NCBI RefSeq assembly: GCF_009914755.1
Contig: NC_060925.1
Length of the DNA: 64,000 nt
Source of the DNA: the human T2T-CHM13v2.0 reference genome, Homo sapiens
Strand: one strand, 5' to 3'
Shown here: positions 45,961 to 51,407 of the stretch, in pieces
How the letters are laid out: every line of letters starts with the position of its first letter
How positions within the stretch are numbered: position 1 is the stretch's first letter
Position numbers and translations under genes: made by a program
The notes under the pieces: generated by a model
Database searches by the model: none
What the model was told of the DNA's origin: nothing
What the model saw: only the letters and a program-made list of their open reading frames with translations

Positions 45961-46187
45961 TCATTACAAATATTGAATCACAGCTAAATGGAAACCAGAT
46001 GTGGCACTCATCAAGTTTATATTTTTGAATCAGGGAGAAGATAAAGACATTTGCAGTTGCAACTTGGAGGCTACAGCCACATTGTTAGATTAGGGCATTT
46101 TTCAATTTTATCTGATATGTTCAGGTAAACCAAGGCTCCTTCTCAAAGAAACAGAAGTTTGAAATTTTGAATGACTGGAGTTGCTCA

Positions 46188-46224
46188 ATGGCCCAGTTCA
46201 ACAAAAATCAGCTCATAGCATGCA
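46188..46224 (+). CDS. OR14L1: Predicted first coding exon of OR14L1 (MAQFNKNQLIAC plus 1 nt)
   Basis: ATG GCC...TGC A|GTAAGT (consensus donor 46225-46230), phase 1, matching the phase-1 acceptor at 48464. Confidence 0.65.
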
Positions 46225-46469
46225 GTAAGTTCAATACCATAAGTGGAAAATAAAACCATAAATAATGTTATATTATTTTTCAATTAATAGATTGCACTGA
46301 TATATTTCCATACCATCTTCTTATCTGATTTATAGATTAAGCACAACACATTTTAGAATACACAGTTATTTCTTTTTTTGGGGTGATAGCAGTTCTGGAT
46401 CTGGGCATGAGCAATGCACATCCATGAAAGCAGGTAAAAGAAAAGAGGGAGTAGTATAATACGAGTTTT

Positions 46470-46515
46470 GATGTGTGGTGAATTGGATGAGTCTATATTT
46501 CCTTTCAGTGGTGAA

Positions 46516-46555
<40 letters not shown>

Positions 46556-46647
46556 TCTCGATGTATGGTGGGATTGGATGAGTCTATATTTCTTTTCAGT
46601 GGTGAAAGTTCTGTATGTGTGTGTGTTGTGTGTGTGTGTGTTCGATG
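46470..46647. repeat. ~90-bp tandem duplication, each unit ending in a (GT)n tract
   Basis: 'gatgt.tggtg..attggatgagtctatatttc.tttcagtggtgaaag' occurs at ~46470 and ~46560. Confidence 0.9.
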
Positions 46648-48463
46648 AAAAGGATGTGCACATTTAAACATGTTTGCATTGACTGAATTTTAAAAAATTC
46701 ATAATAAAAGAGTCAATTCCAATGCCTGTCAATGCATAATAGTTCTCACTTTAGAGTCCTTGATATTTCTCTTCCTGATTAGTGTCACCACATCATTCCT
46801 TTAAACATTTTGATAAAAGAGATATCAATTAATGGTGCCCTGGTAAACTGTAATCAGAATAGATTCCCAAGATGAAGTTGGTTCTTTTACTTGGTCACAA
46901 GAAGCATTTTTCTTTCTATTTGGTTGTACCTGTCCCTTTAACAACCAGCTATTTAGGCGATCAATGTCAGAAAACTAGAACAAATAGAAACACATTTTCC
47001 AGTAGAGAGACATTCAGTTGACTCCATTTTGGTTTTCTTTCTCGGTTTAACTTTTGATTTACCCAAGAAAGACCAGGAAATCAGTGATTGCCTAGAGTGA
47101 AAACTGCTAGAAGAAGAGATTATATACAAAGAAGGATAAGGAATATTTTGGATATGATGAAAATAGTCTGCCCTGGTTGTGGTGGTGGTTTCATAGGCAT
47201 ATACAACTGCGAAAACTCCTAGAATTGCATACTTTAAATTGATACAGTTTACCCTACATAAATTCCAGCTACATTATTTGATATGGGTGAAAATCCATTT
47301 CAGAGTTTGGCTTAAACACTATAGAAGTCTGGGAATGAGGACTCCCATTTTACTGGACTAGACCAATCCAAAGCAAAATTAAAAAAAAAATAAAGTGAGT
47401 CGCAGATGCTAGGAAAGATCATTGTAGAAATTGCTCAATATTTTTAGGTGTCTTGAATACATAATTGATATTCTTTTTCTTTGAATCTCAACATTGAAGA
47501 CAGATTCTGAAGACCAGCAAAAAGACTAGACTGATGTAAATACACATTTCCTAGCTAATCCATACCCATATCCTAAGCATACGATAAATACTTCTGTACC
47601 TCTGCCTTTTCCTATGTGGCTTTCTTCAAAAATATCAGTCTAAAAATCATTCAGTAAAATAGTTCTCAAAACCTAGCTCAGACACTGTTCTCTGCAACTC
47701 TTCTATAACAACACAAAATAAGACCAATCTCTTTTCTCGATACATCCACTATTACCCTTTCTCAACATGCCTGCTATTGTTTATAATACCAGATTCCACT
47801 TAGTATTTTACCTCCCTACGTTCTCTATTTGATTGTTTAAGTTTTGAATTCAAGAACTGTTTCTTATGAAATCTTTTACTATAAGAGCCAACCATTGTGC
47901 TTTTTACGTGAGGTGTTTACCAAATGTCTCCTGATACTTTTTTGAAAGGCTGTGACTATAACCTCACTAAATAGTTATGACATAAGGAGCCTTTTTTTCA
48001 GATTACTAATACCACTTTGATTTTATTTTCATAAAACTGAAAAGAACTATGACAAACCACTTGCAATGCTGTTCTTTAACACATAACGAGCAAATAAAAT
48101 GCTTCAAAATAAATATGTATATTCAGTTGATGGGAATAACACTCATTTTTTGTCCAAGTATGCACACTTTATTCTTTTGTTAATACTATATATTTTCTTT
48201 GTTGATTATGTCAGTGAGGTTATTCATTCTCCCTTTTTATTTTGCATTTTGGTTGTCGTCTTTTATACACCTCACATACTATGATGTATTTATTGAGAAT
48301 ATGCTTTGTATAAAGCACTATTCTGTGTAATTGAGATTTAGGGTTAGAACGATAGTATCCATGCTGCATATGAGTAACCTTATAATTAATTATCACAAAT
48401 TGAAATATCACTGGGGGTAGCCATATTTGATATTTCTATAATCCATTTTTTTTCTCTCTTTAG

Positions 48464-49404
48464 GAAGAAATGGAACGACCACAAGTGATTTTAACCAAAC
48501 TGAAGTTGCTGAATTTTTCCTCATGGGATTTTCGAATTCCTGGGATATTCAGATTGTACATGCTGCTCTATTCTTCCTAGTTTACCTGGCAGCTGTCATA
48601 GGAAATCTCCTAATCATCATACTTACCACTCTGGATGTTCACCTCCAAACCCCAATGTATTTCTTTTTGAGAAACTTGTCTTTCTTAGATTTTTGTTACA
48701 TCTCTGTCACAATTCCAAAATCTATTGTTAGTTCCTTGACTCATGATACTTCCATTTCTTTCTTTGGGTGTGCTCTGCAAGCCTTCTTTTTCATGGACTT
48801 GGCAACTACGGAGGTAGCCATCCTTACAGTGATGTCCTATGACCGCTATATGGCCATCTGCCGGCCTTTACATTATGAGGTCATCATAAACCAAGGTGTC
48901 TGTCTGAGGATGATGGCCATGTCGTGGCTCAGTGGGGTGATCTGTGGATTCATGCATGTGATAGCAACATTCTCATTACCATTCTGTGGGCGCAATAGAA
49001 TACGTCAATTTTTCTGTAATATTCCACAGCTCCTAAGCCTCTTAGACCCCAAAGTAATTACCATTGAGATTGGAGTCATGGTTTTTGGTACAAGTCTTGT
49101 GATAATCTCCTTTGTTGTAATTACTCTCTCCTACATGTACATTTTTTCTGTCATCATGAGGATTCCTTCTAAGGAGGGTAGATCAAAAACATTTTCTACC
49201 TGCATTCCACATCTTGTGGTTGTAACACTCTTTATGATATCTGGCAGCATTGCCTATGTGAAGCCAATTTCAAATTCTCCCCCCGTTCTGGATGTTTTCC
49301 TGTCTGCGTTCTACACAGTCGTGCCCCCGACCCTGAACCCCGTCATCTATAGTCTGAGGAATAGGGACATGAAGGCAGCCCTGAGAAGGCAGTGTGGTCC
49401 CTGA
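48464..49404 (+). CDS. OR14L1: Olfactory receptor family 14 (OR14L1, historically OR14L1P) main coding exon
   Basis: Acceptor 'tttttttctctctttag' ends at 48463. The frame is open from there: RNGTTTSDFNQTEVAEFFLMGFS...LQTPMYFFL...MSYDRYMAICRPLHY...KTFSTCIPHL...PPTLNPVIYSLRN. Confidence 0.85.
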
Positions 49405-49418
49405 GAAGGCAGTGTGGT
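49379..49418. repeat. Perfect 20-bp tandem duplication spanning the OR14L1 stop codon
   Basis: ccctgagaaggcagtgtggt x2. Confidence 0.97.
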
Positions 49419-50239
49419 ATGCTAGATGAAGAATTTGATTACGGACCAGACTCTTGAACTCTTGCTCTAATCAGGCAATTTGTAAACTCTCTGGGCTTAT
49501 ATTTTCAATTGATTGCTGAGCTCTTTCTTGATTTTTAAATTAAATTCAGCTATAGTTTACCATACTAACCATATTTGGGTGAATTCAACCTTAGAATGCA
49601 CTAAAAGGTACTTCGGGGTGTTCAAAACATTAGAACTTGTGCTTTTATTCATTTTTATGAGTTGTAGATCTCAAAATTTTATAAATTATATTGTACTCAG
49701 TAATACAACATATTAATTAATATAAAAGTGAATTACTAATATAAATGAATTACTACCGTATGTGTATATTAATTACAGCAGAACAAGATCATATGGATTA
49801 AAAACAACCAAATGGAAAATAAACATAAGGTAACAGTGTGTGCTCAGAATTTCTTCAGCATTATAAAGGATGGTCAAATAGGCTAGAGACCAGTGTTCTG
49901 GGAGCATATCTATTGGGTGAGATGAAATATATGCAATAATATCACAAACTATAAAGGTTCACATATGTTTATGGTGCTGTGTATAGGAAGGTTCACAGAG
50001 GAGAAATGTCATTTTCATTAAACACAATATTATGTTAAGCTAACTAAAATCTTCTTCCATTTTTCCTCTGCATAGGAAAGTATGAACTGAAAGTTATTAT
50101 GCATTATTCCCAGAGTGCTTTTATGTGTATTCTATCTATATAAATATTCATCTATAAAATGCATAGCATCATTTTATAAATTAATACTTAAACTATAATA
50201 TAAATAGCATCCTACCTTAGTTATCCTTTTTAAAGTCCT

Positions 50240-50898
50240 TTAAATTGTATTTTTAGTTGACAAATAAAAATAATTATATATGCCTATGGGGTAAAAGTGA
50301 TGTTTTAATACATGTTTGCAATGTGGAATGATTAAATCAGGCAATGTAATATATCACCTGAAACATTTGTCATTCATTTGTGGTGACATTGTTTAAAATC
50401 CTCTTTTAACTGTTTTGAAACACACAATACATTGGTATGAACTAGATTAATCTTGCTGTGCAATAGATCACCAGAGCTTATCCTTCCTGTCTAACTGGAA
50501 CTCTGTGCTCTCCGACCAACATTTCCCCTTTACCAGTCTACCATCACCCTTGCCTCCATCTTCTGGTCAGCACCATTCTACTCTGTATTTTTATGAGTTT
50601 GACTTTTTCAGATTCCACATATAAGTGAGATCCTGTGGTATTTGTCTCTCTGTGACTGGCTTATTTCACGTAACATGATGTCCTCTCTAGGTTCATCCAT
50701 ATTGTCACCAATGACAGAATTTCATGTTTTTTTTCAAGGCTGAATAGTATTCCATTGTGTGTGTATACTACATTTTAAAAATCCATTTGTCCACGGTGGA
50801 CACTTAGATTGATTCCATATTTCGGCTATTGTAATGCCGCAATGCACATGGAAATACAGACATGCCTTTGACCTACTGATTCCAGTTCTTTGGATAGA
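50240..50898 (-). mobile_element. L1MA-like 3' end
   Basis: 'ttttagttgacaaataaaaa...cagattccacatataagtgagatc...ggctgaatagtattccattgtg'. Confidence 0.85.
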
Positions 50899-50900
50899 TG

Positions 50901-51407
50901 CAAGCGTACCTCATTGTATTGCACTTCATTTGCTGAATTTCACAAATATTGCATTTTTTATAAATCAAAGGTTTTTGGTAACTTTGCATTGGGCAAGTCT
51001 ATTGGCACCATTTTTCTGACAGCGTGTGCTCACTTCACGTCTGTGTGTCACCTTTTAGTGATTCTCACAATATTTCAAACTTTTTCATTATTGTTATGTC
51101 TGTTTTGGTGATCTGTGATCAGTGATGTTCAATGTTACTATTGTATTTGTTTCGGGGAGCCATGAACTGTTCTCATATAAGATGATAAACTTAATAAGTG
51201 TGTGTGTTCTGACTCTCCGTTGACTGGCTGTGTCTCCATCTTTTTTTCCTCTCCTTAGGCCTTGCAATTTCCTTAGACACAACAATATGAAAATTAGGTC
51301 GATCAATAATCCTACAAGGCCTCTGAATTTTCAAGTGAAAGGAAGAGTTGCCCGTCTCTCACTTTAAATCGAAAGCTAGAAACTATTAAGCTTAGGGAGG
51401 AAGGTAT
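50901..51407 (+). mobile_element. Tigger1 5' fragment
   Basis: 'cgtacctcattgtattgcacttc...gggcaagtctattggcaccatttt...tcaagtgaaaggaagagt...attaagcttagggaggaagg'. Confidence 0.85.

What the first reader, a model, noticed from the sequence alone, without database searches (positions are those of the whole stretch)
46171..49404. OR14L1 'pseudogene' is rescued by a split CDS: start codon in a micro coding exon 2.2 kb upstream
Seen: the single-exon ORF (48523) begins inside the FxLMGFS motif and lacks the N-terminal sequon, and the ATG at 48470 is out of frame, so it looks pseudogenic. However, the frame is open back to a strong acceptor (48463|48464, phase 1) and encodes two sequons, NGT and NQT. 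At 46188, ATG GCC CAG TTC AAC AAA AAT CAG CTC ATA GCA TGC A|GTAAGT is a consensus phase-1 donor. The join gives MAQFNKNQLIACRRNGTTTSDFNQTEVAEFFLMGFS..., 325 aa, across a 2239-nt intron, with HD, O/E-like and TATA motifs just upstream. Established: most OR CDSs are intronless but a minority are split over two exons, so this locus may already be curated that way.
Basis: partly seen in the sequence, partly recalled or inferred. Interest (0 to 1): 0.75.

Follow-up and report, generated by a model that had tools for sequence, protein, structure and literature searches.

The report
OR14L1 two-exon coding sequence, already curated

Summary
Every coordinate checks. ATG 46188, donor 46224|46225, acceptor 48463|48464, phase 1 and stop 49402-04 give 325 aa across a 2239-nt intron. 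This equals RefSeq NM_001396106.1 in the hub's gene table, so the finding is already known.

HAVANA had the same two exons (258 + 2751 nt) with RNA-seq support in 2020. It still called the locus a transcribed pseudogene and left it out of its 13 human split ORs.

Sequence alone was weak evidence. An in-frame ATG before a pretend exon end occurs at about 19% of window positions. Of 611 upstream GT sites, 103 would also 'rescue' the frame.

Conservation is the stronger support:
- Of 26 orthologue models in one well-supported clade, 9 begin with a homologous 12-residue peptide ending in Cys. They are gorilla, ring-tailed lemur, aye-aye, tarsier, elephant (two copies), tenrec, armadillo and chinchilla.
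- The Asn-Gly codons holding the out-of-frame ATG 48470 are conserved in frame, so no 1-bp deletion is needed.
- The receptor body is intact and is expressed in olfactory mucosa at coding-gene levels.

Whether the 325-aa protein works as a receptor is untested.

The parts
45967..46224 (+). Exon 1 (258 nt): 221 nt of 5' UTR plus the first 37 coding bases
   Evidence: Hub RefSeq table. HAVANA has an exon of the same length with RNA-seq support. The stretch is unique in the genome by DNA search.
45988..46218 (+). Four upstream ATGs (45988, 45999, 46117, 46171) with short uORFs. The last one (46171-46218) overlaps the annotated start in another frame.
46188..46224 (+). Coding micro-part of exon 1: the start ATG (context -3 T, +4 G), 12 codons, and the first base of the split Arg codon
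   Evidence: A homologous 12-residue peptide opens 9 of 26 orthologue models.
46225..48463 (+). Phase-1 intron of 2239 nt: GTAAGT donor, (GT)n arrays at 46518-46553 and 46612-46641, branch-like TTGAT near 48430, pyrimidine tract and TAG acceptor
48464..49404 (+). Coding part of exon 2: residues 13-325, the whole seven-helix receptor body, with stop TGA 49402-04
   Evidence: Pfam 7tm_4 E 1.2e-41. Conserved columns kept.
48470..48472 (+). Out-of-frame ATG (good context, 36-aa ORF), formed by the overlap of the Asn15 and Gly16 codons
   Evidence: NG is conserved in frame in orthologue models.
48475..48477 (+). Codon 17, ACG (Thr). The aligned residue is Met in 7 of 26 orthologue models, where it can start a single-exon ORF.
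48487..48489 (+). Codon 21, GAT (Asp). This is the position where all six human OR14 paralogues have their start Met, and where the old HAVANA pseudogene model began.
48493..48501 (+). Conserved N-terminal glycosylation sequon NQT
48523..48525 (+). First in-frame ATG of exon 2. It starts the 293-aa form, which lacks the sequon.
49379..49418 (+). Perfect 20-nt tandem duplication that brings the TGA stop into frame
49405..51214 (+). 3' UTR of exon 2
   Evidence: Hub RefSeq table. HAVANA exon 2 has the same 2751-nt length.

Best explanation
OR14L1 is a class II olfactory receptor gene of family 14 whose coding sequence is split by a phase-1 intron.

Transcription starts near 45967. Exon 1 supplies the start codon and 12 residues, plus one base of an Arg codon. 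The 2239-nt intron is removed, and exon 2 supplies residues 13-325, which is the whole receptor.

Other OR14 genes start at a Met two residues before the sequon. In this lineage that codon is Asp. A second possible start at residue 17 is Thr in human. So only the exon-1 ATG gives a protein that keeps the N-terminal glycosylation site.

Shown here: the sequence anatomy, the transcript junction (from published annotation), expression in olfactory mucosa, the intact receptor body, and recurrence of the exon-1 peptide in orthologue models.

Inferred: the arrangement dates to early placental mammals, ribosomes reach ATG 46188 past four upstream ATGs, and the protein is a working odorant receptor.
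For: Anatomy. The model is identical to RefSeq NM_001396106.1 (hub table).

Transcript: HAVANA has a two-exon transcript with exons of 258 and 2751 nt, tagged RNA-seq supported (PMC7055050 supplementary file 5).

Expression:
- Normalised counts are above zero in 11 of 12 human olfactory mucosa samples, mean about 31.
- In the same table OR14J1 averages about 54. OR2G2, OR2G3, OR14K1, OR14A2 and OR14I1 are near zero.
- FPKM is 0.06-0.68 in 4 olfactory epithelium samples, 11.9-fold over control tissues (PMC4982115 Table S7).
- That paper gives a median of about 0.1 for intact ORs and a mean of 0.09 for pseudogenes.

Receptor body:
- Pfam 7tm_4 scores 143.8 bits against a cut-off of 27.
- Solved OR structures match at up to E 2.7e-80.
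- There are 0 deviations in 32 columns conserved at 95% or more, and 1 in 49 columns at 90% or more, among 53 other human ORs whose median is 2.
- The single deviation, Asp207, is shared by the orthologue models.

Orthologues:
- A clade of 27 rows has SH-aLRT 99 and excludes the human OR14 paralogues (quick tree only).
- Of its 26 non-human models, 9 begin with a 12-residue peptide with Met1, Gln8 and Cys12 invariant and no length change. They are spread over primates, a rodent, Afrotheria and Xenarthra.
- Models that lack Met17 still have whole ORFs: gorilla, aye-aye, three elephant copies and tenrec. Armadillo also lacks Met17 but is flagged low quality.
- The chinchilla model carries the older 'PREDICTED' label.
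Against: - The same curators who built the transcript left the locus a pseudogene in 2020. Their rule required a conserved start Met and junction.
- An in-frame upstream ATG is common by chance. It occurs in 15.6% of 20000 mononucleotide shuffles, 30.0% of 5000 dinucleotide shuffles, and 18.8% and 19.7% of all window positions on the two strands. Barnes et al. report it in 13.6% of human coding ORs.
- Four upstream ATGs precede the start. One uORF overlaps it, and the start has T at -3.
- The exon-1 peptide is only 5-8 of 12 identical to human outside apes, against 76-85% for the body.
- The orthologue models are gene predictions that may have been guided by the human protein. One of the nine is flagged low quality.
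- 17 of 26 models do not show the peptide.
- I could not see the orthologues' DNA, so the ATG, donor and acceptor were not checked at base level.
- The tail is cut short by a 20-nt duplication.
- No ligand, surface expression or protein evidence was found. The 2015 study that discussed the locus did not assay it.
Confidence: 0.8

Rival explanations
1. Transcribed unitary pseudogene. The working start (Met17, or the older Met at codon 21) was lost in the human lineage. The 5' UTR exon happens to carry an in-frame ATG, so the 325-aa ORF is an annotation convenience and no working receptor is made.
For: - HAVANA's biotype in 2020 was transcribed_unprocessed_pseudogene, even though they knew the junction.
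- The chance rate of an in-frame ATG is about 16-30%, and 103 of 611 upstream GT sites would also give an ATG-open phase-1 join.
- Four uATGs precede the start, which has a weak -3 base.
- A duplication shortens the tail to the shortest of 54 aligned human ORs.
- No counterpart at 70% identity or more was found in mouse, rat or dog (PMC4347425).
Against: - The exon-1 peptide recurs with fixed length in 9 models from four placental orders. A neutral UTR would not be expected to keep that.
- Several lineages without Met17 keep whole ORFs, and elephant has three copies.
- The human body shows no loss of conserved residues.
- Expression is at or above the level of typical intact ORs.
- Strepsirrhine models have tails just as short.
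Confidence: 0.15
2. The protein starts at ATG 48523 and is a 293-aa receptor with a short N-terminus. This is how the locus was read in 2015.
For: - The 293-aa ORF is intact and has the common OR motifs (PMC4347425).
- The ATG has G at +4.
Against: - This form lacks the N-x-S/T sequon that all 53 other aligned human ORs have before the first helix.
- The sequon's role in OR surface delivery is recalled here, not tested.
- In the spliced mRNA this ATG is the eighth. It lies behind ATG 48470, which has the best context of all (G at -3, G at +4) and opens a 36-aa ORF running past it.
- Residues 13-31 upstream of it are conserved in frame in orthologues.
Confidence: 0.04
3. A human 1-bp deletion put an ancestral start at 48470 out of frame.
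For: ATG 48470 has a strong context and lies just inside exon 2.
Against: - The ATG is the overlap of AAT (Asn15) and GGA (Gly16).
- Nine of 26 orthologue models read NG at these two residues in the same frame as human, and two read KG, which has no ATG.
- No model starts there.
Confidence: 0.01

Closest known systems
Split olfactory receptor genes of Barnes et al. 2020 (PMC7055050), first class: former pseudogenes whose start Met lies in the upstream exon, such as OR5D3P/Olfr1177-ps, OR2I1P/Olfr94 and OR4F5
   Same: - The start codon and a few residues lie in a short 5' exon.
- The intron sits in the extracellular N-terminus, as in 12 of the 13 human cases.
- The 2239-nt intron falls inside their human range of 1384-7585 nt.
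- The ORF length of 325 aa is inside their range.
- Expression is like that of coding ORs.

   Different: - OR14L1 is not among their 13 human genes, and their files list it as a pseudogene.
- The intron falls after residue 12. In their table the N-terminal human introns lie after residues 1-9, with one after residue 24, and OR5BS1P has its intron at residue 257.
- The paper lists no mouse orthologue, and a 2015 screen found no counterpart at 70% identity or more in mouse, rat or dog.
Second class of split ORs: genes with both a single-exon and a two-exon isoform, such as OR10AG1, OR7E24 and OR10R2
   Same: In ring-tailed lemur and colugo models the exon-1 peptide and an internal Met17 coexist. 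Both kinds of start would be possible there.
   Different: Human has Thr at residue 17 and Asp at residue 21, so no single-exon form with the sequon exists.
Human OR14 paralogues: OR14A2 and OR14K1 by hub coordinates, and four further loci (L002, L004, L006, L007)
   Same: They share the family at 45-52% identity, the LMGFS-type N-terminal motif and the sequon column.
   Different: All six start at a Met two residues before the sequon within the main exon's open frame. OR14L1 has Asp there.

Membership tests
Olfactory receptor (Pfam 7tm_4, rhodopsin-like GPCR) | Match to the family profile above the curated cut-off | tested here: met
   7tm_4 scores 143.8 bits against a cut-off of 27. 7tm_1 scores 123.6 against 30.5. 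Solved OR structures match at up to E 2.7e-80.
Olfactory receptor (Pfam 7tm_4, rhodopsin-like GPCR) | Family-wide conserved residues and motifs kept (motif names recalled) | tested here: met
   32 of 32 columns conserved at 95% or more are kept, and 48 of 49 at 90% or more. PMYFFL, MSYDRY, KTFSTC and NPVIY are present.
Olfactory receptor (Pfam 7tm_4, rhodopsin-like GPCR) | N-terminal N-x-S/T sequon ahead of helix 1 | tested here: met
   NQT at residues 23-25 sits in the column shared by all 54 aligned sequences. It is present only if translation starts upstream of 48493.
Olfactory receptor (Pfam 7tm_4, rhodopsin-like GPCR) | Response to an odorant | not testable with these tools
   No assay of this receptor was found. 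PMC4347425 selected it but tested nine others.
Split OR gene in the sense of Barnes et al. 2020 | Intact full-length ORF that spans two exons of a transcript | tested here: met
   325 aa from 46188-46224 plus 48464-49404.
Split OR gene in the sense of Barnes et al. 2020 | Exon junction supported by RNA-seq from olfactory mucosa | tested here: met
   Read from their supplementary GTF: the exon lengths are the same and the tag is RNA_Seq_supported_partial. No reads were examined here.
Split OR gene in the sense of Barnes et al. 2020 | Start Met and splice junction conserved in orthologues of other mammals | tested here: inconclusive
   At the level of predicted proteins, 9 of 26 models carry the 12-residue peptide followed by Arg or Lys. 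The orthologues' DNA could not be fetched, so the ATG, GT and AG were not seen.
Split OR gene in the sense of Barnes et al. 2020 | Expression like that of coding ORs and above that of pseudogenes | tested here: met
   These are single-gene values set against the papers' summary figures. No rank within the whole repertoire was computed.

The most novel reading that the evidence does not exclude
The coding micro-exon may be an ancestral feature of the OR14L lineage of placental mammals, not a late rescue.

On this reading the internal Met17 was lost repeatedly, each time by a single-base change: Thr in human, Lys in gorilla, aye-aye and armadillo, Ile in elephant and tenrec. Each loss would have made the exon-1 start obligatory.

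The human form would then be doubly derived. Thr17 creates a new NGT sequon that gorilla lacks. A 20-nt duplication, whose short tail the gorilla model shares, removes the tail still seen in afrotheres, armadillo, tarsier and colugo.

This would add a deeply conserved case to the published list of split human ORs. It would also give a natural series for testing what an OR's N-terminal extension does.
Probability: 0.5. Interest if true: 0.3.

Novelty: already known. Interest (0 to 1): 0.12.

Why it matters
It matters little beyond bookkeeping, because the model is already in RefSeq.

It does show that a careful reading of raw sequence can recover a split OR coding sequence. It also shows that such a reading needs transcript or conservation evidence, because in-frame upstream ATGs are common by chance.

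For people who study human ORs, the practical point concerns expression constructs. A construct amplified from genomic DNA as the 293-aa ORF would lack the native N-terminus and its glycosylation site. The locus was described as a 293-aa ORF in 2015.

Tried and rejected
- A search with the first 40 residues of the elephant model was meant to census the exon-1 peptide across mammals. It returned only 3 candidates, all already known, so the census stays at 9 of 26 models.
- The careful tree search did not finish in 288 s. Only the quick tree with SH-aLRT support is reported, and it warns of long branches among the human paralogues.
- A DNA search of the genome with exon 1 and its flanks found only the locus itself. 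So no homologous 5' exon beside the OR14 paralogues could be shown, and no repeat origin either.
- The donor ranking used a position matrix recalled from memory. It is rough and should not be read as a MaxEnt score.
- A full-text search for OR14L1 gave 7 papers. I opened three. None of them describes the reclassification to protein-coding, and one of them uses the name as a misprint for OR14I1.
- I did not fold the protein or run a complex prediction, because neither bears on the question.
- I did not rank OR14L1 within the whole expression table of PMC7055050, which would have needed about 12 supplement look-ups.

Full report
**1. The observation**

- ATG 46188 is followed by 12 codons and one further base. 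GTAAGT then begins at 46225.
- At 48443-48463 a pyrimidine tract ends in TAG, and exon 2 begins with G at 48464.
- The receptor frame is open from 48442 to the TGA at 49402-04. Its first in-frame ATG is 48523.
- ATG 48470 is out of frame and opens a 36-aa ORF.
- Joining 46188-46224 to 48464-49404 in a script gives 325 aa. The intron is 2239 nt.

**2. Already curated**

The hub's gene table gives RefSeq NM_001396106.1 with exons 45967-46224 and 48464-51214, and coding parts 46188-46224 and 48464-49404.

**3. The published record** (PMC7055050; I read passages, section 7, and supplementary files 3, 4, 5 and 7 in part)
- Barnes et al. 2020 reported 13 human and 41 mouse ORs with a coding sequence split over two exons.
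- Their GTF lists OR14L1P with a two-exon transcript of 258 and 2751 nt, the same lengths as here. It is tagged RNA_Seq_supported_partial, but the biotype is transcribed_unprocessed_pseudogene.
- Their table of split genes does not include it.
- Their older single-exon pseudogene model maps to 48487-49404. It begins at codon 21.
- So the junction was known from RNA in 2020, and the coding reading came later.
- A full-text search for the gene name gave 7 papers. None of the three I opened describes that change.

**4. Is it more than chance?** From sequence alone, only weakly.
- An exon end in phase 1 has an ATG-open frame in:
  - 3120 of 20000 mononucleotide shuffles of exon 1;
  - 1502 of 5000 dinucleotide shuffles;
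  - 11948 of 63700 positions on the + strand of the window;
  - 12557 of 63700 positions on the - strand.
- Barnes et al. report in-frame upstream ATGs in 13.6% of human coding ORs.
- Between 35343 and 48440 there are 611 GT sites, and 103 of them would give an ATG-open phase-1 join. On a rough recalled donor matrix the true site ties for rank 10-11.
- The donor matches the consensus in its six intron bases but in none of its three exon bases.
- The acceptor is outstanding, with 17 of 18 pyrimidines. Only 4 of 4035 AG sites in the window reach that.

**5. Where the old start was**
- I aligned the exon-2 translation with 53 other human ORs: 51 loci from the same genome plus OR2G2 and OR2G3 from the window. 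The sequon N-x-S/T forms one column in all 54.
- All six closest paralogues, at 45-52% identity, have their start Met two residues before that Asn. OR14L1 has Asp there (GAT, 48487-89).
- The 293-aa form would lack the sequon.

**6. The body is intact**
- Pfam 7tm_4 matches at E 1.2e-41. Solved OR structures match at up to E 2.7e-80.
- OR14L1 keeps all 32 columns conserved at 95% or more, and 48 of 49 at 90% or more. The median of the other sequences is 2 deviations.
- The single deviation, Asp207 in place of a loop Cys, is also present in the orthologue models. It is a trait of the clade, not damage.

**7. Orthologues**
- A protein search with the exon-2 translation found mammalian models named OR14L1 at 68-97% identity. 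I fetched 31 and aligned 26 of them with the human protein.
- In a quick maximum-likelihood tree these 26 and human form one clade (SH-aLRT 99). It excludes the six human OR14 paralogues and four '14L1-named' proteins of mole, tree shrew, pangolin and echidna. The careful search did not finish, and the tool warns of long branches.
- Nine of the 26 begin with a 12-residue peptide homologous to the human exon-1 peptide: gorilla, ring-tailed lemur, aye-aye, tarsier, two elephant copies, armadillo (flagged low quality), tenrec and chinchilla.
- In these nine, Met1, Gln8 and Cys12 are invariant, the length never changes, and Arg or Lys follows. Identity to human is 12 of 12 in gorilla and 5-8 of 12 in the rest.
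- Because the peptide occurs on both main branches of the clade, I infer that it was present in their common ancestor.
- Caveats:
  - These are gene predictions, which may have been guided by the human protein.
  - 17 of 26 lack the peptide.
  - I could not see their DNA.

**8. Residue 17 and the 1-bp-deletion idea**
- Residue 17 is Thr (ACG) in human. It is Met in 7 of 26 models: two slow loris copies, bamboo lemur, galago and kangaroo rat as the start, and ring-tailed lemur and colugo internally. It is Ile in 4 and Lys in 3.
- Lineages without Met17 nevertheless keep whole ORFs. This fits use of the exon-1 start.
- Residues 15-16 are NG in 9 models and KG in 2, in the same frame as human. 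The ATG at 48470 is the overlap of those two codons, so the deletion scenario is not supported.

**9. Translation**
- Four upstream ATGs lie in exon 1. The uORF from 46171 ends at 46218 and overlaps the start.
- The start has T at -3 and G at +4.
- Barnes et al. report uORFs in 54.6% of human coding ORs, so this is usual for the family.

**10. Expression**
- Normalised counts are above zero in 11 of 12 samples, mean about 31.
- In the same table OR14J1 averages about 54. OR2G2, OR2G3, OR14K1, OR14A2 and OR14I1 are close to zero.
- In PMC4982115 (passages and Table S7) the four olfactory samples give 0.06-0.68 FPKM, 11.9-fold over controls.
- That paper gives a median near 0.1 for intact ORs and a mean of 0.09 for pseudogenes.

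**11. Verdict**

The finding is correct and already known. The best reading is a real split OR gene (0.8). The main rival is a transcribed pseudogene with a fortuitous ORF (0.15). Function as a receptor is untested: the 2015 study that noted the 293-aa ORF did not assay it.

Noticed in passing
49379-49418: A perfect 20-nt tandem duplication brings TGA 49402-04 into frame. Read in the other frame, the second copy continues for 12 more residues, resembling the longer tails of the afrothere (elephant, tenrec, elephant shrew), armadillo, tarsier and colugo models. The gorilla model ends exactly as human does. The human tail is the shortest of 54 aligned human ORs, but strepsirrhine models are as short.
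   Followed up: partly
48469-48477: The first sequon, NGT, exists only because residue 17 is Thr. Gorilla reads NGK, lemur NGM and elephant NGI. This glycosylation site is therefore a recent human-lineage feature, although hedgehog models also read NGT.
   Followed up: partly
46225-48463: The intron is 2239 nt here but 2221 nt in the GRCh38-based HAVANA model. Both exons have identical lengths. The (GT)n arrays at 46518-46553 and 46612-46641, inside a 91-nt repeat of 1.9 copies, are the likely source of the 18-nt difference. I did not check this.
   Followed up: no
Proteins P0036, P0041, P0070, P0033: Proteins named 'putative olfactory receptor 14L1' in mole, tree shrew, pangolin and echidna fall outside the OR14L1 clade. 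They start like ordinary OR14 genes. The reported 'OR14L1' expansion in pangolins (PMC11616205) is therefore probably naming by best hit.
   Followed up: partly
Literature (PMC9352052): The cytomegalovirus receptor OR14I1 is printed there as 'OR14l1'. Three other of the 7 papers found for the name have virus or vaccine titles and may hold the same slip. I did not open them.
   Followed up: partly
Residue 207, about 49045-49047: A loop cysteine present in 49 of 53 other human ORs is Asp in OR14L1. It is also Asp in its orthologue models, so it is a clade-specific change in the second extracellular loop.
   Followed up: partly
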